A DNA stretch of 64,000 bases from NCBI GenBank assembly GCA_034667725.1, contig JAXDQS010000001.1, positions 109,593 to 173,592 of the forward strand, given 5' to 3'. The translations under genes and the position numbers were made by a program. Positions 233-63,677 of this stretch are shown here, piece after piece. The stretch comes from Thermoplasmata archaeon (lineage in GTDB: Archaea > Thermoplasmatota > E2 > JACPAO01 > JAHFTW01). Every line of letters begins with the position of its first letter. The stretch's first letter is position 1. A model generated the notes under the pieces. It worked only from the letters and a program-made list of their open reading frames with translations, was not told where the DNA came from and did not search any database.

Positions 233-337
233 TTACTTCTTCGCGGTCTTCTTGGACGTCTTCTTCGCCGCCTTCTTCGTGGTCTTCTTCGTCGTAGACT
301 TCTTGGCGGTCTTCTTCGCAGCCTTCTTGGTCACCAT
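233..337 (-). CDS. 34-aa lysine-rich small basic protein, [34 protein letters not shown]. It is not in the ORF track.
   Basis: The ATG is preceded by GGGGTGA 8 nt upstream. A perfect AAG/ACC/GCC codon-repeat structure sits in an otherwise 70% GC context. The plus-strand ORFs 107..382 and 132..392 are its antisense artefacts (LLRRLL repeats). Confidence 0.45.
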
Positions 338-2677: not shown

Positions 2678-4149
2678 AACCCGAACAGCCCCTTCTGGCC
2701 GACGCCCGGCTTGGGGCGCGCCGGCTTCTCCTCGGCCGGCGCCTCGCCGTCCTCCGCCGGCCGCGGCTTCGCGCGCGGCTTCGGCTTGGCGGCCTCGTCG
2801 TCCGGCTTGGGCGGGTTGAGCCGTGCCTCGACGTCGGCGCGGATGCGCTTGATCGCGGCACCGGTGGCGTCCGGCCCCAGCAGGACGGCGACCTCGTCGT
2901 CGCTCATCTCCAGCTCCATCGTGGTCTGCACGGCGAAGGCGTGGTCGAGGCGGAACAGCTGCGCCACCGTCTCCACCATCTCCATGCGGGCCTTGCGGCG
3001 GCTGGTGTGGGTGTGGCGCCCGAGGTGCTCCGCAAGCTGGTCCTTGATCTGCCGACTGCCCTTGGTGCGGCTCATCTTGCTGAGCCACTGGGGGAACCCG
3101 AACGGCACGAACTCCTTGTACTCGTGGCGGCGCGCAGTCATGACGCCCAAGGTCGAAAGCTCCCCCGCGTAGGCCCACAAGCCGTAGTCCTGCGTCGACT
3201 TGGTGCGGCCAAGGAACACGTCGGCGCGGGCCAGCATCTCGTAGCCGGCCACCAGGTCGCGCGGGTCGCGGTACTCCTTCGGCAGGTTCTCGTCCACCCA
3301 CAGCACGAGGTCCTCCGGCGTTGCGTCCACCGAGTAGATCTCCGACTTGACGTCCGCGACGGCGCGGCCCTTCAGCACGTGGCGCATCAGGTCAAACAGC
3401 GAGGTCTCGGTGTCGCGGCGGCCTAGGCTCTGCGCCTCCAGCATCGTGACCCGGGTGCGCCCCAGCGAGATCGACTCCAGGTCGCGCACGGCGGCGCGCA
3501 GGTCGCCCTCGGCCCGCACCGCGATGTGCTCCAACACCTCGCGGTCCACCTGAAGGCCCTCCAGCGTCGCGATGCGGGCCAGCGCCGTCGGGATGCTGCG
3601 GACGTTGACCTTCGCGAACTTCAGCACCTCGGTGAGCCCGCGCAGCGCCGACCCCGACCCCTTCTCCAACGCGTACAGGTCGTTGACGATGAGGATGATG
3701 GGCTGCCGGGTCTGGCGGATGGTCTCGATGATGGCCGACTTGCCGCCGCGGTCGGAGAAGCTGCTGCCGTCCTCGCCCGAGTCGCTGCCCGCGCGCTCGT
3801 AGAGGTTGTCCGCCTCGTCCAACACGATGAGCTTGCGGCCGCCCGTGCTGAACGAGCCGTCGGAGCCGAACGTCTGGTGGACCGCGCCCGCCGTCGCGAT
3901 GCGCTGGATCGTGCCCGCGTTGCGCGCGTCCGAGGCGTTGAGCTCGATGACGCTCCAGCCCATGTCGTTGGCGAGCGCCAGCGCCGTGCTGGTCTTGCCC
4001 GTCCCCGGGCTGCCGGCGAGCACGATGGCGCGCTTGTCCGGGATGCCCGTGGCCCACGCCTCGGCCCACGCGCGCAGGCGGGCCACCGTGGGGCCGTTGC
4101 CGACCACCTCCTTCAGGGAGCGCGGCCGGTGCTTCTCCGTCCAGTCCAA
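2674..4149 (-). CDS. rfcL: Replication factor C large subunit (archaeal RfcL)
   Basis: N-terminal MDWTEKHRPRSL, Walker A GSPGTGKTS, and clamp-loader AAA+ boxes. The C-terminal QKGLFGF is a PIP-box-like PCNA-binding tail. Confidence 0.9.
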   Translation of the reverse strand: MDWTEKHRPRSLKEVVGNGPTVARLRAWAEAWATGIPDKRAIVLAGSPGTGKTSTALALANDMGWSVIELNASDARNAGTIQRIATAGAVHQTFGSDGSFSTGGRKLIVLDEADNLYERAGSDSGEDGSSFSDRGGKSAIIETIRQTRQPIILIVNDLYALEKGSGSALRGLTEVLKFAKVNVRSIPTALARIATLEGLQVDREVLEHIAVRAEGDLRAAVRDLESISLGRTRVTMLEAQSLGRRDTETSLFDLMRHVLKGRAVADVKSEIYSVDATPEDLVLWVDENLPKEYRDPRDLVAGYEMLARADVFLGRTKSTQDYGLWAYAGELSTLGVMTARRHEYKEFVPFGFPQWLSKMSRTKGSRQIKDQLAEHLGRHTHTSRRKARMEMVETVAQLFRLDHAFAVQTTMELEMSDDEVAVLLGPDATGAAIKRIRADVEARLNPPKPDDEAAKPKPRAKPRPAEDGEAPAEEKPARPKPGVGQKGLFGF

Positions 4150-4681: not shown

Positions 4682-5725
4682 CTATTTCGCCCGCAGCATC
4701 TTCCCCAACCTGGCCACCGCCTCCTCGCAATCCGCCCGCGTCACGTCGCGGTGGGTCACGAAGCGCACTGTCGGCCCTGCGTCGCGGAAGTTGCCGAGGA
4801 CGCCGAGCTTCTTGGCGGCGGCCATGAACGCGGCGGAGCCCATGCCGGTGGCGGACACGTCGGCCATGACCATGTTGGTCTCGACGGCGTCCAGGTCCAC
4901 CTTCAGCCCGGGCAGCCCAGCCAATCCCTCGGCAAGCAGGCGGGCGTTGGCGTGGTCCTCCTGGAGCCGTTCGATGCCGGTGTCGAGGGCGACGAGGCCG
5001 GCGGCGGCGAGGTGGCCGGCCTGGCGCATGCCGCCGCCGAGCACTTTGCGCACGAAGCGGGCCTCGTCGATGAACGCCTTGTTGCCGCACACTAGGCTGC
5101 CGACGGGGGCGCTGAGCCCCTTGCTGAGGCAGAACATGACGGAGTCGGCGCCTTTGCAGAGCGCCGCGGCAGTGGTGTTGCTTGCGGCGGCGGCGTTGAA
5201 CACGCGGGCGCCGTCGACGTGCAGCTTGGCACCATGGGCGTGGGCTGCGTCCGCGATGGCCTTGGTCTGCTTGGAGGTCCAAGTGCGGCCGCCGGAGTAG
5301 TTGTGGGTGTTCTCGACGGCGACCAGGCGGACTTGGGAGAAGTGGGGGTCGCGGGGCAGGAAGAAGCGCTCGATGTCCTCGGGCGCGAACGTGCCGCGCT
5401 CGCCGCGCACGGTCTTGACGGCGACGTTGGAGAGCAGGCTGGCGGCGCCGCCTTCGTAGAGGCTGATGTGGCTGTTCTCCTCGCACACGATGGCGCCTTG
5501 GCGTTGGGAGTGGACCCAGACGGCGACCTGGTTGCCCATCGTGCCGGTGGGGACGAACAGGGCGGCCTCCATGCCGACGAGCTTGGCGGCCTTGGCCTCC
5601 AGCTTCTTGACGGTGGGGTCTTCGCCGTAGACGTCGTCGCCGACCTCGGCGGCCGCCATCGCCTTGCGCATGGCGTCGGTGGGCTGGGTGATGGTGTCGC
5701 TGCGGAAGTCCAGGGGTCGCGCCAT
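4682..5725 (-). CDS. ltaE: Low-specificity L-threonine aldolase (PLP-dependent)
   Basis: N-terminal FRSDTITQPT..M, VGDDVYGEDPTV and HVDGARVFNA blocks characteristic of the LtaE/GLY1 family. Confidence 0.8.
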   Translation of the reverse strand: MARPLDFRSDTITQPTDAMRKAMAAAEVGDDVYGEDPTVKKLEAKAAKLVGMEAALFVPTGTMGNQVAVWVHSQRQGAIVCEENSHISLYEGGAASLLSNVAVKTVRGERGTFAPEDIERFFLPRDPHFSQVRLVAVENTHNYSGGRTWTSKQTKAIADAAHAHGAKLHVDGARVFNAAAASNTTAAALCKGADSVMFCLSKGLSAPVGSLVCGNKAFIDEARFVRKVLGGGMRQAGHLAAAGLVALDTGIERLQEDHANARLLAEGLAGLPGLKVDLDAVETNMVMADVSATGMGSAAFMAAAKKLGVLGNFRDAGPTVRFVTHRDVTRADCEEAVARLGKMLRAK

Positions 5726-10434: not shown

Positions 10435-11843
10435 GCCCGTGCCCGCGGGCCGTGCCGTTCGCGCTGGCCGCCGCGTTCCTCGCCCTCCCCGTGCTGGTGC
10501 CGCCCGCCAACGCCTTGGGCGGCGAGGCGCAGCGCGCCATGGTCACCGACGCCGACCTGCGGGGCCCGCTCGTGGCCGCCGACCTGCCGCCTGAGCACGC
10601 CGACGCCAAGCTGACGCTGCGGCTTGAGGCGGCGGCCGCCACCTTCCTGGTGCAAGAGTATCGCTGGACGGCCGGCGCCACCAGCGTCCAGTCGCTCGCC
10701 ACCCATCCCGACGACCGCGTCGGCCACGTCGAAGGCGTCGTGGCCACGGGCGCGAGCCGCGACGACGTCGCCTTCACCCTGCTGCCCCTCGCCGAGGGCG
10801 CCGCCACCCTCCAGGTCGTGGCGCCCTGCCTCGGCCTGGCGGCCGCCACCAGCGGCACCGCCACGTTCGTGGACCGCACCGGCGGCGGCCCCAGCCCGCC
10901 GCCCGCGCGCCCCGCGCCATTGGCCGGCAGCCTGGCCGCAGGGGCGTGCCAAGGCACCGCCACCGTGCGCGCCACCGGCTCGTTCCAGTTCTCGCTGTGG
11001 AGCCTCGACGTCGAAGCCAGCGGCGCCGGCGACGCCGGCACCTACCCCTCCGGCCGGGAGCAGGACGCCCGGGCCCCCGGCGCCCCCTGCGTGGCCGGCT
11101 GCGACCTCGTCAAGCGCCAATCCTACGTCACCGTCGAGAACGGCACCCTGGAGATCACGGGCGTCCCGCTCGCCTCCGCGTTGCTGCACGCCACCGCGCT
11201 GCGCGGCCCCGCCACCAAGCTCGTCCTCGACGAGGGCGAGCCCATCGTGCACGCCGGCGGCCTCACGCTCGACCTGCGCGCCGACAGCGGCCGCGTCCGC
11301 GCCGTGGCCGCCCCCGTCCAGCCGCCCGCCAACCCCGACGCCGTCGTCGCCCAAGGCCCGCTCGCCTGGGGCTGGGGCTACGGCCTGCTTGCCGCCCTCG
11401 CCCTCCCGGCCGTCGCCGTCGGCCTCATCGCCGTCCGCGGCCGCCGCGCCGCGCGCCGGCTCGACGACGCCGAGGCGCTGCTGGAGCAAGGCCTGCCCCA
11501 CGAGGCCGCGCGGCTGGCCCGCCCACTATTGCGGCGCGCCCGCCAGCGCGACGAGGCCGCCTTCGTCCTCGTGCAGGCGCTGTGCGACGCCGGCGTGCCC
11601 GCCGAGGCGCGCGCGACCGTCGCGCAAGTGTGGCCGGCCGACCGCCCGGTCGCCGCCTACCTGCGCGCCTACATCGAGGCCGCGCAAGGCCGGCAGGACG
11701 CCGCCGTCCGCGAGCTGGCCGACTGCCTCGCCGCCGCGCCCGACTTCCTGCCGGAGGTCCAGGCCCAGCCCTTGTTCCGCCGCGCCCTGCGATCGCCCGC
11801 CCTGGCCCGCTGGCTGGGGCCGCACAGCCCGGGGTACTCGTGA
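10431..11843 (+). CDS. Single-pass membrane protein with an extracellular domain and a cytoplasmic TPR-like helical tail
   Basis: Signal peptide MSPCPRAVPFALAAAFLALPVLVPPANA. TM WGWGYGLLAALALPAVAVGLIAV. Ala/Arg-rich helical repeats at the C-terminus. Coupled by ATGA to the upstream gene. Confidence 0.55.
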   Translation: MSPCPRAVPFALAAAFLALPVLVPPANALGGEAQRAMVTDADLRGPLVAADLPPEHADAKLTLRLEAAAATFLVQEYRWTAGATSVQSLATHPDDRVGHVEGVVATGASRDDVAFTLLPLAEGAATLQVVAPCLGLAAATSGTATFVDRTGGGPSPPPARPAPLAGSLAAGACQGTATVRATGSFQFSLWSLDVEASGAGDAGTYPSGREQDARAPGAPCVAGCDLVKRQSYVTVENGTLEITGVPLASALLHATALRGPATKLVLDEGEPIVHAGGLTLDLRADSGRVRAVAAPVQPPANPDAVVAQGPLAWGWGYGLLAALALPAVAVGLIAVRGRRAARRLDDAEALLEQGLPHEAARLARPLLRRARQRDEAAFVLVQALCDAGVPAEARATVAQVWPADRPVAAYLRAYIEAAQGRQDAAVRELADCLAAAPDFLPEVQAQPLFRRALRSPALARWLGPHSPGYS

Positions 11844-12319
11844 TGGAGCCGGACGCCCGCGCCCGCATCGTCGTCCTGGTCGCCGCCACCCCTGGCCTTT
11901 CGCTGCAGGACCTGGCGCTCGCGATGGGCCTCAGCCGCACCGCCGTCGCCCGCCACACCCGCCGCCTCGCCAAGGACGGCCGCATCCGCCGCATCCGCTC
12001 CGGCCGCCGCGTGCTGCACGTCCCCAACGGCCACGAGGGCAACCCGACCATCCTCGCCGCGATGCGCCAACGCACCGCCCGCATCGTGCTGGAGTCGTTC
12101 CGCGCCGACCCCCGCCTGCCCGTGCGCGAGCTGGCGCGGCGGCTCGACGTCACGCCGAAGGCCGTCCGCTGGCACGTCAAGCGCTTCCGCGCCGACGGCC
12201 TGCTGGAGGGCGCCGGCATGGAGCGCGACGGCCGCCGCGGCCGCCCCGACGCCGGGCTCGGCGAAGGACTGGAGGCGATGCCGGTGTGGGACCCGGCGGA
12301 GCATCCGGAGCACGGCTGA
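11844..12319 (+). CDS. Tandem winged-helix (wHTH) transcriptional regulator
   Basis: Two repeats of the HTH pattern (LSLQDLALAMGLSRTAVARHTRRLAKDGRIRR and LPVRELARRLDVTPKAVRWHVKRFRADGLL). Begins 1 nt after the upstream stop. Confidence 0.6.
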
Positions 12320-17225: not shown

Positions 17226-17315
17226 TGCACGCCTATCGAAAAATTCGCAGAAAGAGGTATCGATTTCTTGCTCCCTGTTGGGTGTCCTAAAAAGCATGGA
17301 GAATCTAGACCCCTC
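17226..17315. promoter_or_regulatory. AT-rich divergent promoter region between the 16383..17225 gene (-) and the DHH nuclease gene (+)
   Basis: The 90-nt region is ~45% GC. TATA-like AATTTTTCG lies ~20 nt upstream of the minus-strand ATG. CCTAAAAAG lies ~25 nt upstream of the plus-strand GTG start. Confidence 0.5.
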
Positions 17316-21555: not shown

Positions 21556-21582
21556 GCCGGCTTCTGCCCACGGCCGTCGTCA

Positions 21583-21605
21583 TTTATAGAAGCGCCAACC
21601 ATGCC
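21583..21605 (+). promoter_or_regulatory. TATA box plus conserved downstream box, TTTATAGAAGCGCCAACCATGCC, upstream of psmB (leaderless)
   Basis: TATA TTTATAGA lies 21-28 nt upstream of the psmB ATG. The 23-nt stretch is near-identical to the one upstream of cdc48 (57022..57045). Confidence 0.6.
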
Positions 21606-21611
21606 GGGACG

Positions 21612-22226
21612 ATGACGACCACGGTCGGGATCAAGACTCCGGAGGGCATCGTCTTGGCGACGGACCGCCGGGCGACGATGGGCTACTACGTCGCGGACAA
21701 GGACGTCGTGAAGATCGAGCCGCTGGACGCCGACTCGGCCATCACCATCGCGGGCTCCGTGGCGCAAGCCCAGTCCTACGCCCACATGCTTCGCCTGAAC
21801 CTGGAGTACACCCGCGGCCGCCGCGGCTGGTCGCTCTCGCCCCAGGAGCTCGCCAAGCTCGCCGCGCACACCATCCAGCGCGCCGGCGGCATCTACGGCC
21901 AGTTCATCCTCGCCACCCGCGGCACCGACGGCACCCACCTCTGGGACGTCGGCGGCGACGGCTCGCTCATCGCCAAGCGCGACTACACCTGCACCGGCTC
22001 CGGCACCGGCCCCGCCGTGGGCGTCCTGGAGTCCGCCGACTGGTCCAAGGTCAAGGGCATGAAGGACGCCGTCGAGCTCGCCAAGAAGGCCGTGCGCGCC
22101 AGCACCCAGCGCGACGTCGCCTCCGGCAACGGCTTCGTGGTCTACACCCTGCCCAACGCCGGCGACGCCGGGCTGCGCATCTACACTTTCAGCACCGAAG
22201 TGACCGAGGAGGTGCTGCCCGCATGA
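21612..22226 (+). CDS. psmB: Proteasome beta subunit with no propeptide (Met immediately followed by Thr1)
   Basis: MTTTVGIKTPEGIVLATDRRATMGYYVADKDVVKI. The catalytic Thr is at the position after Met1. GSVAQAQSY, K33 and D17 context. No in-frame start upstream, because the TATA box occupies that space. Confidence 0.9.
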   Translation: MTTTVGIKTPEGIVLATDRRATMGYYVADKDVVKIEPLDADSAITIAGSVAQAQSYAHMLRLNLEYTRGRRGWSLSPQELAKLAAHTIQRAGGIYGQFILATRGTDGTHLWDVGGDGSLIAKRDYTCTGSGTGPAVGVLESADWSKVKGMKDAVELAKKAVRASTQRDVASGNGFVVYTLPNAGDAGLRIYTFSTEVTEEVLPA

Positions 22227-22302: not shown

Positions 22303-23028
22303 ATGAAGCCCACCGTCGACACCGCCTACCTCCACTTCGACGAGACCGGCAGCATCCCGGCCATCAAGTACGCCCGCATCACCCTCGGGATGGGCCTGCC
22401 CATCATCGCCGCCCGCGACGACAAGCAGGTCGTGGTGGCCACCGTCAACCGCGACGGCAACCCGCTCTACACCGGCGCCGACAAGACCATCCGCGTCAGC
22501 CGCGACTGCGTCGTCCTGGTCACCGGCCACGGCGGCGACACCAACCAGGTCCGCCAACTGCTGCGGGACCTCGCGGTCAACCACAAGTTCGTCCTCGGCA
22601 GCGAGGTCTCCCCCAAGGAGGTCAGCCTCGCGCTCTCCGACTACCTGCACCAGCTCGGCATGAGCTACCGCCGCCCCCTCGGCGTCGGCATCATCGTCGC
22701 CGGCTTCGACGTCCACGGCACCGAGCCCGCGCTCTACCACTGCGACGTCGACGGCAACGCCACCGACCGTGTCGGCATCGCCCTCGGCAAGGAGGCCAGC
22801 CAGGCCGAGCACATCCTCCAGGACGGCATGCGCTCCAAGGGCCCCAAGAAGCTCGAGGACATCGTCCGCGCCGCCGCCGACGCCGCCATCAAGGGCTTGA
22901 AGGAGTCCAACGTCGACATGGCCGGGCAGAGCTTCCGCGTCGACCTGGAGGCGCTGCGGCCGAGCCGCGAGGTCACGGCCCCCGCCACCGAGCGCAAGCC
23001 CGCGAAGGAACCCAAGGGCAGCGCCTAG
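22303..23028 (+). CDS. psmA: Highly divergent proteasome alpha-type (Ntn-fold, no Thr1) subunit. SD-dependent second gene of the operon.
   Basis: GGAGG 7 nt upstream of the ATG. HFDETGSIPAIKYA aligns with alpha FSPDGRLFQVEYA. RRPLGVGIIVAGFDVHGTEPALYHCDVDGN aligns with alpha RPFGVSLLIAG.D..PRLYETDPSG. The YDR gate motif is not conserved. Confidence 0.6.
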   Translation: MKPTVDTAYLHFDETGSIPAIKYARITLGMGLPIIAARDDKQVVVATVNRDGNPLYTGADKTIRVSRDCVVLVTGHGGDTNQVRQLLRDLAVNHKFVLGSEVSPKEVSLALSDYLHQLGMSYRRPLGVGIIVAGFDVHGTEPALYHCDVDGNATDRVGIALGKEASQAEHILQDGMRSKGPKKLEDIVRAAADAAIKGLKESNVDMAGQSFRVDLEALRPSREVTAPATERKPAKEPKGSA

Positions 23029-24276: not shown

Positions 24277-24699
24277 ATGGACGGGGTCATCTGCGAGAAG
24301 GGTCGCCACGTCAACTGCCTGCACGCCAAGCGCAAGGCGAAGGCGGCCAGCCCCGTGCAGGACTACCTGGCCGGCCTAGCCCCCGAGCCGCGGGCGGCCT
24401 TGGAGAAGCTCCAGAAGGCCATCCTGGCGGCGGCGCCGACGGCGGTCGAGGGCATGAGCTACGGGATGCCCGCCTTCAAGCTGGACGGCCACGGCATCGC
24501 GGCGTTCGCGGCCTTCAAGGACCACTTGAGCTTCTTCCCGATGAGCGGCACCCTGGTGGCGACGATGCAGGCCGACCTTGGGGGGTTCAAGACCTCCAAG
24601 GGCACCGTGCAGTTCACCCTGGACAAGCCCCTTCCGGCAGCGCTCGTCAAGAAGATGGTCAAAGCCCGCATCGCAGAGTTGCGGACGACGGGGCGCTGA
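24277..24699 (+). CDS. DUF1801 (YdhG-like) domain protein
   Basis: The VQDYLAGLAPEPRAALEKLQKAI...GMSYGMPAFKLDG...FAAFKDHLSFFP pattern is typical of DUF1801. Confidence 0.65.
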   Translation: MDGVICEKGRHVNCLHAKRKAKAASPVQDYLAGLAPEPRAALEKLQKAILAAAPTAVEGMSYGMPAFKLDGHGIAAFAAFKDHLSFFPMSGTLVATMQADLGGFKTSKGTVQFTLDKPLPAALVKKMVKARIAELRTTGR

Positions 24700-32146: not shown

Positions 32147-32602
32147 GTGCGCATGCCGGCCAAAGCGAAACCCATGCCGCGAAAGAAGGCCGCGGCCCCA
32201 TCCTCCAGCACGGGGGCCGCCAAGCGCATCGACCAGGAGATCGCCGACCTGGGCGACTGGAGGGGCGAACGGCTGGCCGAGATTCGCAAGCTCATCCACG
32301 AGGTGGACCCCGACGTGGTCGAGGAGTGGAAGTGGAAGGGCACGCCGGTCTGGTCGAACGAGGGGATGTACGCCCTCGCCAACGCCCACAAGGCGCACGT
32401 CAAACTGACCTTCTTCCACGGCGCCGAGCTTCCCGACCCCAAGAAGATGTTCAACGCGATGCTCGAAGGGAACAAGTGGCGCGCCATCGACTTTGAGCAA
32501 GAGGACAAGATCGACAAGGCCGCGCTGAAGGCGCTGCTGCGGGCCGCCATCGCCTACAACCAGACGCACTCGGTCCCCAAGAGCAAAGGGTCGCGGGTGT
32601 AG
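32147..32602 (+). CDS. DUF1801-family protein (paralog 1 of a tandem pair)
   Basis: VDPDVVEEWKWKGTPVWSNEGMYALANAHKAHVKLTFFHGAELPD pattern. An alternative Met start is within the first 10 codons. Confidence 0.55.
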   Translation: MRMPAKAKPMPRKKAAAPSSSTGAAKRIDQEIADLGDWRGERLAEIRKLIHEVDPDVVEEWKWKGTPVWSNEGMYALANAHKAHVKLTFFHGAELPDPKKMFNAMLEGNKWRAIDFEQEDKIDKAALKALLRAAIAYNQTHSVPKSKGSRV

Positions 32603-32613
32603 GAGGGAGCCTC

Positions 32614-33024
32614 GTGCCCAGCAAGCCCAAGCCGACTCTCCTGAGCGGGGGGAACCCCCAGATCGCCAAGGCCGACGGCGACGCCCCCGTGCAGGCGTAC
32701 ATCGCCGCCATGCCCGACTGGAAGCGCGACATCGGCCGGCGCCTCGACGCCCTCGTCGTGCGCAACGTGCCCGGCGTGCGCAAGGCCGTGAAATGGAACT
32801 CACCGTTCTACGGCATCGAGGGCCAAGGCTGGTTCCTGTCGTTCCACGTCTACGCCCGCTACGTCAAGGTGACCTTCTTCCAAGGCACCTCGCTGCGGCC
32901 GGTCCCCCCTGGAGGCACGGCCAAGGACGCGCGCTGGATCGACGTCCACGAGGACGACCTCGACGAGGCGCAGATTGCGAAGTGGGTCAAGCAGGCGGCG
33001 GCGGTGCCGGGCTGGATTCCGTAG
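32614..33024 (+). CDS. DUF1801-family protein (paralog 2)
   Basis: AVKWNSPFYGIEGQGWFLSFHVYARYVKVTFFQGTSL follows the same pattern as the upstream gene. Confidence 0.55.
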   Translation: MPSKPKPTLLSGGNPQIAKADGDAPVQAYIAAMPDWKRDIGRRLDALVVRNVPGVRKAVKWNSPFYGIEGQGWFLSFHVYARYVKVTFFQGTSLRPVPPGGTAKDARWIDVHEDDLDEAQIAKWVKQAAAVPGWIP

Positions 33025-35227: not shown

Positions 35228-35265
35228 GCCTTCGCCTTTTACGAAGCAGCGCCGTCGCCGCCCGC

Positions 35266-36753
35266 GTGGCCTGGAACGGACCCCTGCACGACCTCGGACG
35301 GGGCGTCCACGAGATTCCGGCCGACTACAAGGGCGCCAACGGGAACCTCACGATGCGCGTGCCCGGCCGCATCATCGCCCAGCCGGACCTGCTGGAGCAC
35401 ATCCAGGACGACATGGCGCCGGAGCAGGTCGCCAACGTCGCGGCCCTTCCCGGCATCGTCGGCTACTCCTTGGCCATGCCCGACATCCATTGGGGCTACG
35501 GCTTCCCGATCGGCGGGGTCGCGGCGTTCGACCCGGACGCGGGCGGCGTCGTGTCGCCCGGCGGCGTCGGCTTCGACATCAACTGCGGCGTGCGGCTGCT
35601 CCGGACCGGCCTCACCGAGCGCGACGTGCGCGCCCGCCTTCCCGAGGTCGTCGACGCGCTGTTCGACGCGGTGCCGTGCGGCATGGGCAGCAAGGGCGGC
35701 CTGGAGCTGGGCGAGCGCGAGCTAGAAGGCATCCTGGACGGCGGCGCCCAATGGGCCGTCGAGCGCGGCTGGGCCACGGCGCGCGACCGCGAGCACATGG
35801 AGGAGCGCGGCGTCATCCCGGGCGCCGACTCCTCGAAGGTCCACGAGCGCGCCCGCGTCCGGGGGCGACGGAGCCTCGGGTCGCTGGGCTCGGGCAACCA
35901 TTTCCTCGAGCTGCAGGTCGTGGACCAGTTGTGGGACGAGGCCGCGTGCAAGGCCTACGACGTGGGTGTTGGCGACGTGCTGGTGATGATCCACACCGGC
36001 AGCCGCGGCCTCGGCCACCAGATCTGCGAGGACCACGTCAAGGAGCTGCAATCCGTGTCCGCCCGGCACGGCATCGAGCTGCCCGACCGCCAGCTGGCCG
36101 CGGCGCCGTTGGGGACGCCGGAGGCCGACCGCTACCTGGGCGCCATGGCCGCCGCCGCGAACTTCGCCTTCGTCAACCGCAGCGTCCTCACCAGCCACAC
36201 CCGCAAGACGTTGGGCCGGCTGTTCGGCGGCGGCGACATGGGCCCCGACGTCGAGGTGGTCTACGACGTGTGCCACAACATCGCCAAGTTCGAGGAGCAC
36301 GTCGTCCCCCACGGCCCCGACAAGGGCAAGCGCAAGCGGCTGTGCGTCCACCGCAAGGGCGCGACGCGGGCATACGGCCCCGGCCACCCCGGCGTCCCGG
36401 CCGGCTACCGCGACGTCGGCCAGCCCGTCATCGTCCCCGGCGACATGGGCCGCATGAGCTTCCTCCTGGCCGCGAGCCCCGGCGCCTTGGCCACCACCTT
36501 CGGGTCGAGCTGCCACGGCGCCGGCCGCCGCCTGAGCCGGAGTGCCGCCAAGCGGACCTGGGACGGCCCCGAGCTGATTCGCAAGCTGTGGGAAGTGGAC
36601 GGCATCCGGGTGCGCGCGGCGACGCCGGACGTGGCCGCCGAGGAGGCGCCGGAGTCCTACAAGGACGTCAGCCGGGTCGTCGATTCGGTCGAGGTGGCGG
36701 GGCTGGCCCGGAAGGCGGCGCGGATGCGGCCCATCGGCGTGGTCAAAGGCTGA
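35266..36753 (+). CDS. rtcB: RNA-splicing ligase RtcB (tRNA ligase), GTG start
   Basis: MRVPGRI..., LPGIVGYSLAMPDIHWGYGFPIGGVAA, NCGVR and GSGNHF motifs with metal-binding His/Cys. ~495 aa. No intein. Confidence 0.9.
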   Translation: MAWNGPLHDLGRGVHEIPADYKGANGNLTMRVPGRIIAQPDLLEHIQDDMAPEQVANVAALPGIVGYSLAMPDIHWGYGFPIGGVAAFDPDAGGVVSPGGVGFDINCGVRLLRTGLTERDVRARLPEVVDALFDAVPCGMGSKGGLELGERELEGILDGGAQWAVERGWATARDREHMEERGVIPGADSSKVHERARVRGRRSLGSLGSGNHFLELQVVDQLWDEAACKAYDVGVGDVLVMIHTGSRGLGHQICEDHVKELQSVSARHGIELPDRQLAAAPLGTPEADRYLGAMAAAANFAFVNRSVLTSHTRKTLGRLFGGGDMGPDVEVVYDVCHNIAKFEEHVVPHGPDKGKRKRLCVHRKGATRAYGPGHPGVPAGYRDVGQPVIVPGDMGRMSFLLAASPGALATTFGSSCHGAGRRLSRSAAKRTWDGPELIRKLWEVDGIRVRAATPDVAAEEAPESYKDVSRVVDSVEVAGLARKAARMRPIGVVKG

Positions 36754-52868: not shown

Positions 52869-55022
52869 TCAGGGTCCGGCCTGGGCAGGCGCCGTTGCCT
52901 TTGGCAGGGTGAAGGCGGCCGTCACGCCCTTGCCCTTTCCGGCGCTGGTGAGCGTCAGCTTCCCGCCGTGCGCGTCCACGATGGCCTTGCTGAGGTAGAG
53001 CCCGAGGCCGGTGCCCTTGGATTCCTCTGCGACTCCTTGGACTTGCGAGAACGGGCGGAACAGGCGTGCGATCTGCTCGGGCGTCAGGCCCAAGCCTTCG
53101 TCCTGGACGTAGATCTCGACGTGCTCGGGGCTTTCCCGCGCCCCGAGGCGGATGGTGCTGCCTGCGGGGGCGTAGCGGACGGCGTTGCTGACGAGGTTGG
53201 TGATGACTTGCAGGATGCGCCGTTCGTCGCCGAACGCCTCTAGGCGCCCCTCAAGCTGGGACCCGAGCTTCAGCCTCCGTTGCTGGGCTTGCGCCTCGAA
53301 CGTCTCGACGGCGTCCTGGAGAAGCCTGCCCACCTCGATCTTGCCGGGCTTGATGGTCATGCGGCCGGCCTCCACGCGCGCCAGGTCCAGGAAGTCGTCC
53401 AGCATCGTCGTCAAGCGCTTGACGTTCCGTTGCATGATGGCCATGGAGCGGTTGCGCTCCTCCTCGGACATGGGGACCGTCGTCATCATGTGGATTTGCA
53501 GGCTCAATGCGCTAAGGGGGGTCTTGATGTCATGCGTGGCCATGTTGAGCAGGTCGGTCTTGAACTGGCTGGCCAGCAGGGCTTTGCGCTTCTCGCGGAC
53601 ATGAGACTCCAGAAGACGGCCCCGTTGCAGGCCGGCGCCCATGCGGTCGGCCACAAGCTGCAGCAGCTCCAAGTCCTTCACGGCGAAGCGGTCCCTGCTG
53701 CGCGCGCCGCAAACGAGGACCCCCTGCACCTTGTCCTGGATGCGCAGGGGCACCGCGACCAAGGACTGGATGCCTTCCTCGGCAAGGCCAATGCGGAAGA
53801 TGTCGTCCGGCTGGACGTCGCTGACCAGCACCGGCTCGCCCGTCTCGACGATCTTGCGGATGCTTCCGCTGACGGACACGGGCCGAACGCCCAGGGAGGT
53901 CGCAAACCCCAGGCTGGCGCGCGGCCACAATTGGTCGCCTTCGTCGTCCATCAGGAGGATCGCCGCGACGTCGCTGGCCAGCAAGGTGCGCGTTCCCTCA
54001 AGGAGCAGGGCCAGGCGCTCATCCATCGGCAAGGCTCCCAAGGCCGCGTCGCGCATGGCCTCGTAGTCGCCGACGGTGGTCGCCGCCTTGGTCTGCTGCT
54101 CCACGTGGGCTTGGGCCAAGTTGACCATCGCTTCCGCATCGCCCTCCTTCGCGGCCTTGCGGAGCGCCACCGCCAAGGCCTGTTCTTCGTCGATGATGGG
54201 CTGGACCAGCCGGCGCCGCGTGCTGCCGGACTCCGTCTTGTCCAAGGGGGCGACGCGTGCCCGCTCGACGGCCATGCCGACCTGTTCTGCGACGACCTCG
54301 AGCAGGCGCTTCTCCTGCTCGTCAAAGCCGCGGCGGGTCGCCCAGCCGACCTCAAGCACGCCAAGGGGCTTGTCGCCCGCAAGGATGGGGACGGTCACAA
54401 GCCGCTGGATTCCCCGGCTCAGCAGCAATGGGTTCGCGACGGTCTTCTCATTGACGTCGTCCACCGTCTGGGTCTCACGGGTCGCAAGGGCCACTCCGGC
54501 CACGCCTTCGCCCATGGGAATCCGGATTCCAGCCGTGACGGCGTCCTCAAGGCCGCTGGAGGCCCGGGCGAAGAGCTGGCGGCCGTCGGCCTCAAGCAGG
54601 AACACGGTGGCCGCGTCGGCGTCCAGCATCGTTCGGATGCGGCCGAGGATCTCGGGGAAGAACAGGTCGGGGTCCAGGTTCCTGAGCGCTGCGTCCAGGA
54701 TTTGCTCGTAGTGGCTGATGGTGACGGCCCGATGGACCTGCTCCTCGGCGTGCGCCACGGCCTCCTCGGCGACCTCGGTGGGCCCCTTCTCCGCCGCGCG
54801 CACCGCCTTCTGCAAGTGCTCTTTTTCCTCCGAGATGAGCTCATCGACGTGCGGGTCGACGTGCTCGCCGGCCGGCTTGCTTCCGTCGAGTGGCGGGTCC
54901 GCAGGCTTCGACGCTGGGGCCGCGCCCGGTTCAGGGGCGACCCAGCCCGATGGAGGGCGGCCTGATCTTTTGCGATGTCGGTCCTTGGAGGTCGCCGGTG
55001 CGGCGGCACGGTCGCGCGCCAT
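52869..55022 (-). CDS. Sensor histidine kinase with tandem GAF domains (cytoplasmic)
   Basis: H-box ATHDIKTPLSAL. HATPase_c N/G boxes (LVSNAVRYAP, DEGLGL, GTGLGLYLSKAIV). Two GAF-like regions upstream. The N-terminal half of ORF 52869..56741 is an artefact. Confidence 0.8.
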   Translation of the reverse strand: MARDRAAAPATSKDRHRKRSGRPPSGWVAPEPGAAPASKPADPPLDGSKPAGEHVDPHVDELISEEKEHLQKAVRAAEKGPTEVAEEAVAHAEEQVHRAVTISHYEQILDAALRNLDPDLFFPEILGRIRTMLDADAATVFLLEADGRQLFARASSGLEDAVTAGIRIPMGEGVAGVALATRETQTVDDVNEKTVANPLLLSRGIQRLVTVPILAGDKPLGVLEVGWATRRGFDEQEKRLLEVVAEQVGMAVERARVAPLDKTESGSTRRRLVQPIIDEEQALAVALRKAAKEGDAEAMVNLAQAHVEQQTKAATTVGDYEAMRDAALGALPMDERLALLLEGTRTLLASDVAAILLMDDEGDQLWPRASLGFATSLGVRPVSVSGSIRKIVETGEPVLVSDVQPDDIFRIGLAEEGIQSLVAVPLRIQDKVQGVLVCGARSRDRFAVKDLELLQLVADRMGAGLQRGRLLESHVREKRKALLASQFKTDLLNMATHDIKTPLSALSLQIHMMTTVPMSEEERNRSMAIMQRNVKRLTTMLDDFLDLARVEAGRMTIKPGKIEVGRLLQDAVETFEAQAQQRRLKLGSQLEGRLEAFGDERRILQVITNLVSNAVRYAPAGSTIRLGARESPEHVEIYVQDEGLGLTPEQIARLFRPFSQVQGVAEESKGTGLGLYLSKAIVDAHGGKLTLTSAGKGKGVTAAFTLPKATAPAQAGP

Positions 55023-56374: not shown

Positions 56375-56797
56375 CTAGACGAATGGGCACATGCGGTGCT
56401 CGCGGTGGCTGCGGACGTGCAGCAAGGCCAGGCCGAGGGTGTGCAGCGCCCAGATGGCGAACAGGCTGCCCCAGAAGACGGTGCCGCCGACCTCGGTGTC
56501 GATGCCTTTGGAGGCCAGGTAGAGGAGGCCGACGAGGACGATGATGGCGGCGACCCGGCTCCAGAAGCCGCGCCGGTCGGGGGCGATCTGGTGGCGGCGG
56601 ACGCCGATGGCGACGACGAACACGCCGCCGACGTGGACGGCGACGAGGGCCCAGAGGTACACGGTGGCGGCCAGTTCGTCCTGCCAGAGCAGGATGGGGA
56701 CGAGGGCGATGGTGGTGGCGGCGAGGAGGGCGGTCTTCCACCAGAAGGTGCGGCGGTCGCTGAAGACCATCCGCGGGGCTGGGGCCGCCGGCTCCAT
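56375..56797 (-). CDS. Small 4-TM membrane protein, first gene of the aminotransferase-kinase operon
   Basis: The hydrophobic C-terminal portion of ORF 56375..56998 from Met MEPAAPAP (alternative MVFSDRR at 56770). Confidence 0.45.
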   Translation of the reverse strand: MEPAAPAPRMVFSDRRTFWWKTALLAATTIALVPILLWQDELAATVYLWALVAVHVGGVFVVAIGVRRHQIAPDRRGFWSRVAAIIVLVGLLYLASKGIDTEVGGTVFWGSLFAIWALHTLGLALLHVRSHREHRMCPFV

Positions 56798-57021
56798 GGG
56801 CTGCGCGGTGGGGCCGTCGCTATTTGGGGGCTTGCGCTTCGGTGGTTGACATGTTCGCCTGCGTGGCCCTGCTTGCCTCCACCCGAAGGGGCAAGCCTCG
56901 GCCCGTCCAACAGCAGCCCTCAGGAACCGCGCGCCGCCAGGAAGGACGGGCCTCCATGACGCAAAGGCCACCCTTATACCGCGGCGCCCGATTCCCATTT
57001 AGGGGATAGGTCGGTCTTCTT

Positions 57022-57045
57022 TTTATAGAAGTGCCGACCCATGCC
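57022..57045 (+). promoter_or_regulatory. TATA box plus conserved downstream box, TTTATAGAAGTGCCGACCCATGCC, upstream of cdc48
   Basis: Near-identical (21/23 with one indel) to the psmB promoter element at 21583..21605. The TATA lies 34-41 nt upstream of the cdc48 ATG. Confidence 0.6.
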
Positions 57046-57062
57046 TGCCCTGGAGATTCTCG

Positions 57063-59279
<2,217 letters not shown>

Positions 59280-63586: not shown

Positions 63587-63677
63587 GCCGGACCAGCCGT
63601 TCGCCGGCCGATAACCATGCCGGAATCCCTTCCAAGGGGGAGCGGCATGGACGGGCGTGGCCGTCACCGTGGCGCCC

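What the first reader, a model, noticed from the sequence alone, without database searches (positions are those of the whole stretch)
21583..21605. Near-identical 24-nt TATA-plus-downstream box upstream of both the proteasome operon and cdc48: a candidate proteostasis regulon
psmB upstream reads TTTATAGAAGCGCCAACC-ATGCC. cdc48 upstream (57022-57045) reads TTTATAGAAGTGCCGACCCATGCC. The match extends 15 nt beyond the TATA box. These are the only two TTTATAGA boxes I found in 64 kb of 70% GC DNA, and they sit in front of functionally linked genes (20S proteasome and its Cdc48 unfoldase). The extra GCC(A/G)ACC(C)ATGCC box is positioned like an initiator/TSS-proximal operator. It could bind a shared regulator, by analogy to bacterial proteasome/chaperone regulons.
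Basis: seen in the sequence. Interest (0 to 1): 0.7.

Follow-up and report, generated by a model that had tools for sequence, protein, structure and literature searches.

The report
Shared promoter box: proteasome and Cdc48
In an uncultured high-GC Thermoplasmata archaeon, the proteasome operon and the gene for its likely unfoldase Cdc48 share a near-identical core promoter that is kept in related genomes, which suggests the two are switched together by an unknown factor.

Summary
TTTATAGA occurs only at 21583 and 57022. The next 15 nt match 13/15 with one gap, which 31 of 200,000 random window pairs reach. The sites lie upstream of psmB-psmA (leaderless geometry, TATA centre about 26 nt before the ATG) and of cdc48 (predicted 5' UTR about 12 nt).

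The match covers the core promoter from TATA to about -7 and has layers:
- TATA.
- A GAAG flank, also present at a few other TATA-type promoters.
- An 8-nt box, YGCYRACC, found only at these two gene families.
- A/T at -11/-10.

The block is kept in 10 of 11 other psmB promoters and in 6 cdc48 promoters from related genomes, while the flanks are randomised. In 216.6 kb of clade DNA, every strong PWM hit is a psmB or cdc48 promoter. EF-1a, L15e, tRNA, msrA and PCMT promoters lack it.

A shared cis-element is therefore well supported. A wider proteostasis regulon, a TSS-spanning operator and a regulator are not shown: the one genome-collection scan was cut off, no third target was found, and no transcription factor is identified.

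My preferred reading is an operator for a repressor sited between TATA and the TSS. The main rival is a special promoter class read by a basal-factor paralogue. This would be a new member of a known kind, of moderate interest.

The parts
21583..21588 (+). TATA box of the psmB-psmA operon (TTTATA). Its centre is about 26 nt before the psmB ATG, which is leaderless geometry.
   Evidence: All 11 other psmB promoters retrieved from related contigs have a T-rich box about 30 nt before the ATG.
21589..21592 (+). GAAG flank directly 3' of the TATA box. This layer is probably generic to TATA-type promoters of this clade.
   Evidence: TATA-like hexamer plus GAAG also occurs at rtcB (35237), at the Lys-rich small ORF (382, minus strand) and at L214:7639.
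21593..21600 (+). Specific box CGCCAACC (consensus YGCYRACC), at about -19 to -12.
   Evidence: Conserved in psmB orthologues. Cross-identity with the cdc48 set is 0.43-1.0 per column, mean 0.68, against about 0.28 in the flanks.
21601..21605 (+). ATGCC. The A/T pair at 21601-21602 sits at about -11/-10.
   Evidence: A/T-rich dinucleotide kept at this position in all 11 aligned psmB promoters. The position relative to the TSS is inferred.
21561..21569 (+). CTTCTGCCC, a second conserved block found only in psmB promoters, 14-22 nt 5' of the TATA box. Function unknown.
   Evidence: Information content 0.9-1.56 bits at columns -19 to -14 (except column -17 region values listed) in the psmB set, and not conserved in the cdc48 set.
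21612..22226 (+). psmB, 20S proteasome beta subunit (204 aa, MTTTVGIK...).
22303..23028 (+). Second proteasome-fold gene (alpha-like), probably co-transcribed with psmB. No TATA-like box in the 76-nt gap.
   Evidence: The two genes are adjacent or overlapping in L214 and L215.
57022..57027 (+). TATA box of cdc48 (TTTATA, preceded by TT).
   Evidence: The 11-mer TTTTATAGAAG is identical in 6 of the 7 aligned cdc48 promoters including the window.
57028..57039 (+). GAAG flank plus specific box TGCCGACC.
57041..57045 (+). ATGCC, displaced by 1 nt relative to psmB.
   Evidence: Semi-conserved in L113 and L014.
57009..57039 (+). Imperfect palindrome GGTCGG-T-CTTC...GAAG-TG-CCGACC centred on the TATA box. 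Specific to this genome and not conserved.
   Evidence: DNA fold -10.2 kcal/mol, z = -4.4 here. L014 gives z = -2.8, and the other cdc48 promoters range from -1.6 to +0.9.
57052..57055 (+). GGAG, a Shine-Dalgarno-like element 8 nt before the cdc48 ATG. The predicted 5' UTR is about 12 nt.
   Evidence: The TSS position is inferred from the TATA-to-ATG spacing at psmB.
57063..59279 (+). cdc48 (VAT-like AAA+ unfoldase, 738 aa).
56375..56770 (-). 131-aa membrane protein, a conserved divergent neighbour of cdc48. The 292-nt intergenic region holds the cdc48 promoter.

Best explanation
The 23-nt match is the core promoter, from the TATA box to about -7, of two transcription units in an uncultured high-GC Thermoplasmata archaeon: psmB-psmA (20S proteasome) and cdc48 (VAT-type unfoldase).

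It has four layers:
- A canonical TATA box.
- A GAAG flank that other TATA-type promoters of this organism also carry.
- An 8-nt box, YGCYRACC, at about -19 to -12, found only at these two gene families.
- An A/T pair at -11/-10.

Shown here: the block is under purifying selection in both promoter families and is specific to them in the DNA I could examine.

Inferred: the specific box, probably read together with the GAAG flank, is the binding site of one DNA-binding factor that sets the output of both promoters. This would keep the protease core and its unfoldase in step. Because the site lies immediately 3' of the TATA box and 5' of the TSS, the most likely mode is repression: TBP and TFB can still bind, but RNA polymerase recruitment is blocked, and repression is relieved on proteotoxic stress. 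The factor, the signal and the sign of regulation are all unknown.
For: Non-random identity of the two window sites.

Position: the TATA centre is about 26 nt before the psmB ATG in the window and in all 11 related psmB promoters retrieved. In cdc48 orthologues the distance from TATA start to ATG is 34-46 nt.

Conservation: 10 of the 11 related psmB promoters (78-87% protein identity where reported) and 6 related cdc48 promoters (88-93% protein identity for those fetched by protein) keep the block. Sequence immediately 5' and 3' is unalignable.

The two independent alignments converge on the same consensus, TTTATAGAAGYGCYGACC. Cross-set identity is 0.6-1.0 in most columns from -1 to +18 and about 0.28 outside.

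Specificity: in 216.6 kb of clade DNA scanned on both strands, every PWM hit of 20 bits or more is a psmB or cdc48 promoter, and the next best hits score 13-16 bits. Within the window and its 18 kb of same-contig extension, the two sites score 30 bits and the next best 14.6.

Promoters of EF-1a, L15e, tRNA-Ile and tRNA-Ala, which are normally the strongest in a genome, have other TATA boxes and no box.

In a second organism both promoters carry the unusual TTTGTAGAAGCGC variant (L011 and L214). This is one case of within-genome covariation.

A degenerate form, GTAGAATCG, persists upstream of cdc48 down to 73% protein identity (L015, L219).

Precedent: P. furiosus Phr represses the Cdc48 homologue VAT1, HSP20 and the proteasome-assembly chaperone PbaA from promoter-proximal sites (PMC10746257).
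Against: No third target and no regulator were found.

The conserved unit is not a dyad. A palindrome around the TATA box is strong only in the window and in L014, whereas most archaeal transcription factors bind inverted repeats.

The GAAG layer, and possibly the -10 A/T layer, are generic promoter features, which leaves only about 8 nt that are specific.

Both genes are likely to be highly expressed, so convergence on a strong core promoter is hard to exclude without expression data.

The loci examined were fetched because they carry psmB or cdc48, so the control set is only their neighbouring genes.

Confidence: 0.5

Rival explanations
1. A special core-promoter class rather than an operator. 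The TATA flavour, the GAAG flank (at the position of the eukaryotic downstream BRE) and the box would be read by the basal machinery itself, for example a TFB or TBP paralogue or TFE. The promoters would then be strong, or responsive through the abundance of that general factor, as proposed for the haloarchaeal hsp5 promoter.
For: The conserved block abuts and includes the TATA box, and the 11-mer TTTTATAGAAG is identical in 6 of the 7 aligned cdc48 promoters. The block is asymmetric, as basal elements are. TATA plus GAAG also occurs at rtcB, at a small basic-protein ORF and at L214:7639. GTF-directed heat-shock regulation through core elements is documented (PMC2396416).
Against: The 8-nt box is absent from the other TATA+GAAG promoters and from the EF-1a, L15e and tRNA promoters. 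In hsp5 the responsive elements were BRE and TATA, not sequence 3' of the TATA box (PMC2396416). No TFB or TBP paralogue was examined.
Confidence: 0.3
2. The factor is a homologue of the known euryarchaeal heat-shock repressors Phr (Thermococcales) or HSR1 (Archaeoglobus). This would be their regulon in Thermoplasmata, extended to the proteasome operon.
For: Phr controls a Cdc48 homologue (VAT1) and the proteasome-assembly chaperone PbaA from sites close to the promoter (PMC10746257). HSR1 controlling a cdc48-hsp20 operon is from my own recollection and was not checked here.
Against: Phr recognises a palindrome (PMC10746257). The consensus I recall, TTTA-N3-AC-N5-GT..., is not matched: positions 8-9 of both sites are AA, not AC. 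The conserved unit here is not a dyad. In P. furiosus the proteasome subunits themselves are not heat-induced (PMC10746257). Presence of a Phr homologue in this genome was not tested.
Confidence: 0.08
3. Chance resemblance of two TATA promoters, with the apparent conservation explained by recent common ancestry of the compared genomes.
For: Only two sites occur in the window. The high-GC background makes any TATA box stand out.
Against: p is about 1.6e-4 for the 15 nt after the TATA box alone. In both orthologue sets the flanks are saturated while the block is kept. Two non-homologous promoter families share one consensus.
Confidence: 0.03
4. A structural DNA element: a palindrome or cruciform, or a bidirectional promoter centred on the TATA box, serving cdc48 and the divergent membrane-protein gene.
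For: The window cdc48 site is a 31-nt imperfect palindrome (z = -4.4), and L014 also has one (z = -2.8). A divergent neighbour gene is conserved.
Against: The arms are not conserved. L013, L113 and L211 and the psmB sites show no significant fold. The divergent gene starts about 250 nt away (56770). psmB has no divergent partner.
Confidence: 0.04

Closest known systems
Phr heat-shock regulon of Pyrococcus furiosus and other Thermococcales
   Same: An archaeal transcription factor co-regulates a Cdc48/VAT homologue with other proteostasis genes, including the proteasome-assembly chaperone PbaA. Its sites lie close to the core promoter and it acts as a repressor (PMC10746257).
   Different: Phr sites are palindromic and A/T-rich. 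The box here is G+C-rich and asymmetric. In P. furiosus the 20S subunit genes are not part of the response, whereas here the psmB-psmA operon is one of the two targets. No Phr homologue has been shown in this organism.
Rpn4-PACE proteasome regulon of yeast (own knowledge; see also PMC6415940)
   Same: One short promoter element is shared by proteasome subunit genes and CDC48, which couples the supply of the protease and its segregase or unfoldase.
   Different: PACE (GGTGGCAAA) is an upstream activator site in a eukaryote, read by a zinc-finger activator that is itself a proteasome substrate. Here the element lies inside an archaeal core promoter, the sequence is unrelated, and no feedback loop is shown.
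GTF-directed regulation of the haloarchaeal hsp5 promoter (TFB2/TFBb)
   Same: A stress-protein promoter is distinguished by its core-promoter sequence and read by a particular general-factor paralogue (PMC2396416).
   Different: In hsp5 the determinants are BRE and TATA, and sequence 3' of the TATA box was dispensable. Here the distinguishing part lies 3' of the TATA box.
Canonical archaeal promoter architecture (BRE-TATA, -10 'WW'/PPE, leaderless mRNAs) and the eukaryotic downstream BRE (own knowledge)
   Same: The TATA box is centred about 26 nt before the start of a leaderless gene. There is an A/T pair at -11/-10. The GAAG flank occupies the position of a downstream BRE.
   Different: There is no purine-rich BRE 5' of the TATA box; the sequence there is pyrimidine-rich or variable. 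A conserved G+C-rich 8-mer between TATA and -10 is not part of the canonical model.

Membership tests
Archaeal TBP/TFB-dependent core promoter | TATA box centred about 26-27 nt upstream of the transcription start | tested here: met
   TATA centre (about 21586) to psmB ATG (21612) is 26 nt. The same spacing holds in all 11 related psmB promoters retrieved. The TSS itself is inferred from leaderless geometry and was not mapped.
Archaeal TBP/TFB-dependent core promoter | Purine-rich BRE immediately 5' of the TATA box | tested here: not met
   The sequence 5' of the TATA box is variable or pyrimidine-rich (gtcgtca, tcttctt, gtgct...). The purine-rich GAAG lies 3' of the TATA box instead.
Transcription-factor operator shared by a regulon | Conserved in orthologous promoters beyond neutral expectation | tested here: met
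   10 of 11 related psmB promoters and 6 of 6 close cdc48 promoters keep the block while the flanks are randomised.
Transcription-factor operator shared by a regulon | Present at several functionally linked transcription units and absent from unrelated ones | tested here: inconclusive
   Exactly two transcription units carry it, and nothing else does in 216.6 kb. No whole genome could be scanned, and the collection scan was truncated at 118 rows.
Transcription-factor operator shared by a regulon | Dyad or direct-repeat symmetry typical of dimeric archaeal transcription factors | tested here: not met
   The conserved unit is asymmetric. Palindromes around the TATA box are genome-specific (z = -4.4 and -2.8 in two promoters, not significant in the others).
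Transcription-factor operator shared by a regulon | A cognate DNA-binding protein | not testable with these tools
   The only clear transcription factor in the window (two wHTH domains, 11843-12319) has no link to either site. Binding needs an experiment.
Phr/HSR1 heat-shock regulon | Palindromic Phr-type operator | tested here: not met
   Phr recognises a palindrome (PMC10746257). The box is not palindromic, and by inspection it does not fit the consensus I recall.
Phr/HSR1 heat-shock regulon | A Phr or HSR1 homologue encoded in the genome | not tested
   Only 82 kb of this genome was available, and none was seen in the Pfam scans.
Rpn4-PACE type proteasome regulon | PACE element and an Rpn4-like activator that is a proteasome substrate | not tested
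   The sequences are plainly unrelated to GGTGGCAAA. The comparison is functional only.

The most novel reading that the evidence does not exclude
The box is the operator of a dedicated proteasome-Cdc48 homeostat that is widespread in mid- and high-GC Thermoplasmata, a lineage whose cultured relatives lack PAN and use Cdc48/VAT as the proteasomal unfoldase (own knowledge). A single factor, possibly itself turned over by Cdc48-20S, would adjust both genes to proteolytic load. This would be an archaeal, independently evolved counterpart of the eukaryotic Rpn4/Nrf1 feedback loop.
Probability: 0.12. Interest if true: 0.7.

Novelty: new member of a known kind. Interest (0 to 1): 0.42.

Why it matters
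How archaea set proteasome levels is largely unknown. I found no paper describing a promoter element common to 20S and Cdc48 genes in archaea. In the best-studied case, P. furiosus Phr, the 20S subunits are not part of the response (PMC10746257).

A short, sharply conserved box shared by the protease core and its probable unfoldase gives a concrete handle. It can serve as bait to fish out the regulator, as a PWM to define the regulon in complete genomes, and as a test of whether coupling of proteasome and Cdc48 expression, known from eukaryotes, also exists in archaea.

It also hints at an unusual promoter grammar in this uncultured clade, with a purine flank 3' of the TATA box and no canonical BRE.

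Tried and rejected
1. Generic strong-promoter consensus. EF-1a/S10, L15e, tRNA-Ile and tRNA-Ala promoters have different TATA boxes and no GAAG or box. Most other genes have weak CCTTATGG-type boxes at -30. Rejected for the 8-nt box, but kept for the GAAG flank.

2. Bidirectional promoter with the ORF 56375-56998. The long ORF is an artefact of high GC. Coding signal, my gene call and the JGI call put the start at 56770, about 250 nt away.

3. Upstream mini-ORF. ATGCCGGGACGATGA overlaps the psmB start, but its ATG lies only 18 nt after the TATA start and so falls upstream of the predicted TSS. Rejected.

4. Conserved hairpin or cruciform. Not conserved.

5. Extra copies in the window. RACCATGCC has 4 matches against 1.1 expected, including one at 63613. 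Those other matches lack the TATA and GAAG context and fall far below the two sites in the PWM scan. The 14.6-bit hit at 17293 (minus strand) owes its score to the T-run.

6. Exact-pattern scan of genome contigs. It stopped at 118 rows and almost all hits were chance hits in bacteria. The three hits in Thermoplasmatota-clade MAGs (L108, L113, L211; one is labelled Halobacteriales) are all cdc48 promoters. Two Bathyarchaeia hits (L117, L156) are not upstream of a proteostasis gene.

7. The viral-contig scan gave 79 hits, a number I estimate to be at chance level. They were not examined.

8. The metagenome scan returned only 10 psmB loci.

9. Rfam and tRNA scans found nothing at or near the two sites.

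10. Pairing psmB and cdc48 promoters from the same genome succeeded for only one further organism (L011 and L214).

Full report
**Observation.** The two strings are present exactly as reported: 21583-21605 reads TTTATAGAAGCGCCAACCATGCC and 57022-57045 reads TTTATAGAAGTGCCGACCCATGCC. TTTATAGA occurs twice in the window on either strand, against 0.00 expected from shuffles. GAAGNGCCRACC has perfect matches only at these two places, and looser copies are not enriched (39 against 68 expected). The 15 nt after the octamer match 13/15 with one 1-nt gap, and 31 of 200,000 random pairs of window segments reach that. The window is about 70% G+C and holds only 13 A/T-rich 8-mers, so canonical TATA boxes are rare in it.

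**Context.** The window comes from a MAG labelled Thermoplasmata archaeon. The beta-subunit protein is found at 100% identity on a 367,845-bp contig, and the same sequence lies on JGI contig Ga0467041_0000031. I called genes by codon-position G+C and checked them against Pfam.

Site 1 lies in the 56-nt gap before psmB (21612-22226, MTTTVG..., PF00227). A second proteasome-fold gene follows at 22303-23028, with no TATA-like box between them. In relatives the two genes abut or overlap, so they form an operon.

Site 2 lies before cdc48 (57063-59279), which has CDC48_N, CDC48_2 and two AAA domains. The ORF that seemed to start 26 nt to the left of this TATA box (56998) is a high-GC artefact. The real divergent gene is a conserved 131-aa membrane protein that starts at 56770.

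**Geometry.** At psmB the TATA centre is 26 nt before the ATG. The same spacing holds in all 11 related psmB promoters retrieved. This is the signature of a leaderless mRNA with the TSS at or next to the ATG, so the shared sequence spans about -29 to -7. It lies between TATA and the TSS and does not span the TSS.

At cdc48 the distance from TATA start to ATG is 34-46 nt in different genomes. That gives short 5' UTRs of 5-17 nt, and the window has a GGAG 8 nt before the ATG. All TSS positions are inferred.

**Conservation.** Ten psmB loci came from the metagenome scan, nine of them with the promoter region (78-87% protein identity). Two more came from protein look-ups (L214, L215). All but L007 keep a T-rich box, then GAAG (or CGAG/GAAC), then YGCYRACC, then an A/T pair.

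For cdc48, three orthologues fetched by protein (L011, L013, L014; 88-93% identity) carry TTT(A/G)TAGAAG followed by the box. So do three more found by the pattern scan (L108, L113, L211).

In a column-by-column profile the cdc48 set is nearly invariant from -1 to +20 and random outside. Identity between the psmB set and the cdc48 set is 0.6-1.0 in most columns from -1 to +18, averages 0.68 over the eight box columns, and is about 0.28 in the flanks. Because the flanks are saturated, recent shared ancestry does not explain the block. Two non-homologous promoter families have converged on, or retained, one consensus: TTTATAGAAGYGCYGACC.

The psmB set has an additional block of its own, CTYCTGCCC, 14-22 nt 5' of the TATA box.

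**Phylogenetic range.** More distant cdc48 promoters keep only a degenerate core:
- L015, 81% identity: CTCGTAGAATCGTACC.
- L218, 79%: CTTAAGTAGCCCCTGGAC.
- L219, 73%, 55% G+C: TTATGTAGAATCGCTAAAATACC.

Two A/T-rich lineages at 71-72% identity have nothing comparable.

**Specificity.** I built an 18-column PWM from 17 sites and ran it over 216.6 kb of clade DNA. This comprised the window, 18 kb of same-contig extension, and all related loci. It gives 20-33 bits at psmB and cdc48 promoters only, and the next best hits score 13-16 bits.

Promoters that are usually the strongest in an archaeal genome do not carry it:
- EF-1a/S10: CTCAAATACC, with a long leader.
- L15e: TCATATATGG.
- tRNA-Ile: CTTATCTA.
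- tRNA-Ala.

 Most other genes have weak CCTTATGG- or CTATAAG-type boxes at -30. Two protein-repair genes in the window, msrA (9272) and PCMT (48073), also lack it.

**Layers.** Not all of the match is specific. A TATA-like hexamer followed by GAAG also precedes three other genes:
- rtcB: TTTTACGAAGCAGCGCC at 35237, with the same -30 geometry.
- A 34-aa Lys-rich ORF on the minus strand: TTATTCGAAGCACC at 382.
- A secreted-protein gene in a relative: L214:7639.

GAAG is therefore probably a general flank of TATA-type promoters in this clade. It sits where a downstream BRE would lie, and no purine-rich BRE is seen 5' of the TATA box. The A/T pair inside ATGCC falls at -11/-10, the position of the archaeal -10 element (my own knowledge). 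What remains specific to psmB and cdc48 is the 8-mer YGCYRACC, together with the unusually strict conservation of the whole block.

**Symmetry.** The window's cdc48 site is an imperfect 31-nt palindrome (z = -4.4), and L014 has another (z = -2.8). The arms differ between genomes, and the other promoters, including all psmB sites tested, show no significant fold. I treat this as incidental. The conserved unit is asymmetric.

**Covariation.** In the one other organism for which both promoters could be retrieved (P0066 and P0132 share the same contig statistics, including the 672,745-bp longest contig), both carry the otherwise unique TTTGTAGAAGCGC variant. This is suggestive, but it is a single case.

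**Mechanism.**
- Shown: a sharply bounded, conserved promoter block shared by two functionally linked transcription units and found nowhere else in the DNA available.
- Inferred: a common trans-acting reader.

Because the block sits directly 3' of the TATA box and 5' of the TSS, the textbook archaeal mode is a repressor that tolerates TBP/TFB binding but blocks RNAP recruitment. Phr of P. furiosus, which controls VAT1, HSP20 and PbaA, is a precedent (PMC10746257). I give this about 0.5.

The main rival, at about 0.3, is that the block defines a promoter class read by a basal-factor paralogue, as proposed for hsp5 (PMC2396416). The asymmetry of the block and its fusion to the TATA box favour this rival. 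The absence of the 8-mer from other TATA+GAAG promoters counts against it.

Chance and structural-DNA explanations are unlikely.

**The regulon claim.** A wider regulon including PAN, SAMP or chaperones is untested rather than refuted. Its 118 rows were almost all chance hits in bacteria, and the three hits in the clade were all cdc48 promoters. No regulator gene was found near either site. The only clear transcription factor in the window (11843-12319) belongs to an unrelated operon.

**Known or new.** Literature searches found no description of a promoter element common to archaeal proteasome and cdc48 genes. An archaeal Cdc48 homologue is reported to interact directly with the 20S proteasome (PMC6017811). 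I file this as a new member of a known kind, a conserved promoter-proximal cis-element defining a small co-regulated gene set, of moderate interest.

Noticed in passing
window 233-337 (-), promoter about 373-382: A 34-aa Lys-rich ORF ([34 protein letters not shown]) with a GGGGGTGA Shine-Dalgarno sequence and a TTATTCGAAG promoter. It looks like a small histone-H1-like basic protein. The JGI annotation calls an antisense 86-aa ORF here instead (L216 9479-9739).
   Followed up: partly
window 35237-35266 (+): rtcB (PF01139, E=1e-159) has TTTTACGAAGCAGCGCC with its start codon 30 nt after the TATA start. This is the same TATA+GAAG architecture as psmB but without the YGCYRACC box.
   Followed up: partly
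window 16383 to about 17240 (-): The 937-nt 'gap' holds a membrane-protein ORF (...MADETVQEADISDPELTFRYGW...) of atypically low third-position G+C, which my composition-based gene call missed. It may be foreign DNA. No Rfam match in the region.
   Followed up: partly
window 22303-23028 (+): The second proteasome gene matches only PF00227. The N-terminal alpha-subunit signature did not appear among the Pfam matches, and the N-terminus reads TAYLHFDETGSIPAIKYARI. It may be a divergent alpha subunit with an unusual gate region.
   Followed up: no
window 59256-59279 (+); L013 about 5190-5214: Cdc48 ends in -GGMEFL, conserved in L013. The penultimate residue is aromatic, but this is not a canonical HbYX (hydrophobic-Tyr-X) proteasome-docking tail.
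   Followed up: no
window 56375-56770 (-); L011 2389-2808; L014 2275-2844: A small membrane protein ending in CPFV is a conserved divergent neighbour of cdc48 (61% and 56% identity). It has no Pfam family.
   Followed up: partly
window 21561-21569 (+): CTTCTGCCC, 14-22 nt 5' of the psmB TATA box, is conserved in psmB orthologue promoters only. It is a second, psmB-specific element of unknown function.
   Followed up: partly
window 52869-54815 (-); L013 1-1310: A histidine kinase (GAF-HisKA-HATPase in the window; HisKA-HATPase in the truncated L013 copy) lies two to three genes upstream of cdc48 in both the window and L013. This may be conserved synteny.
   Followed up: no
window 24277-24699, 32174-32602, 32614-33024: Three DUF1801 paralogues within 9 kb, two of them adjacent.
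   Followed up: no
L015/L016 5217-6407; L011 423-1415 and about 2160-2340: Mobile-element traces next to cdc48 in relatives. An IS605 OrfB/TnpB (Cas12f-like) gene lies directly after cdc48 in L015. A phage-type integrase plus tRNA-like sequences lie upstream in L011.
   Followed up: no
L117 1398-1500; L156 about 3380-3480 (-): Two Bathyarchaeia MAGs share a conserved stretch of about 60 nt containing TTTATAGAAGYGCCAACC. It is not upstream of a proteasome or cdc48 gene and is probably unrelated.
   Followed up: partly
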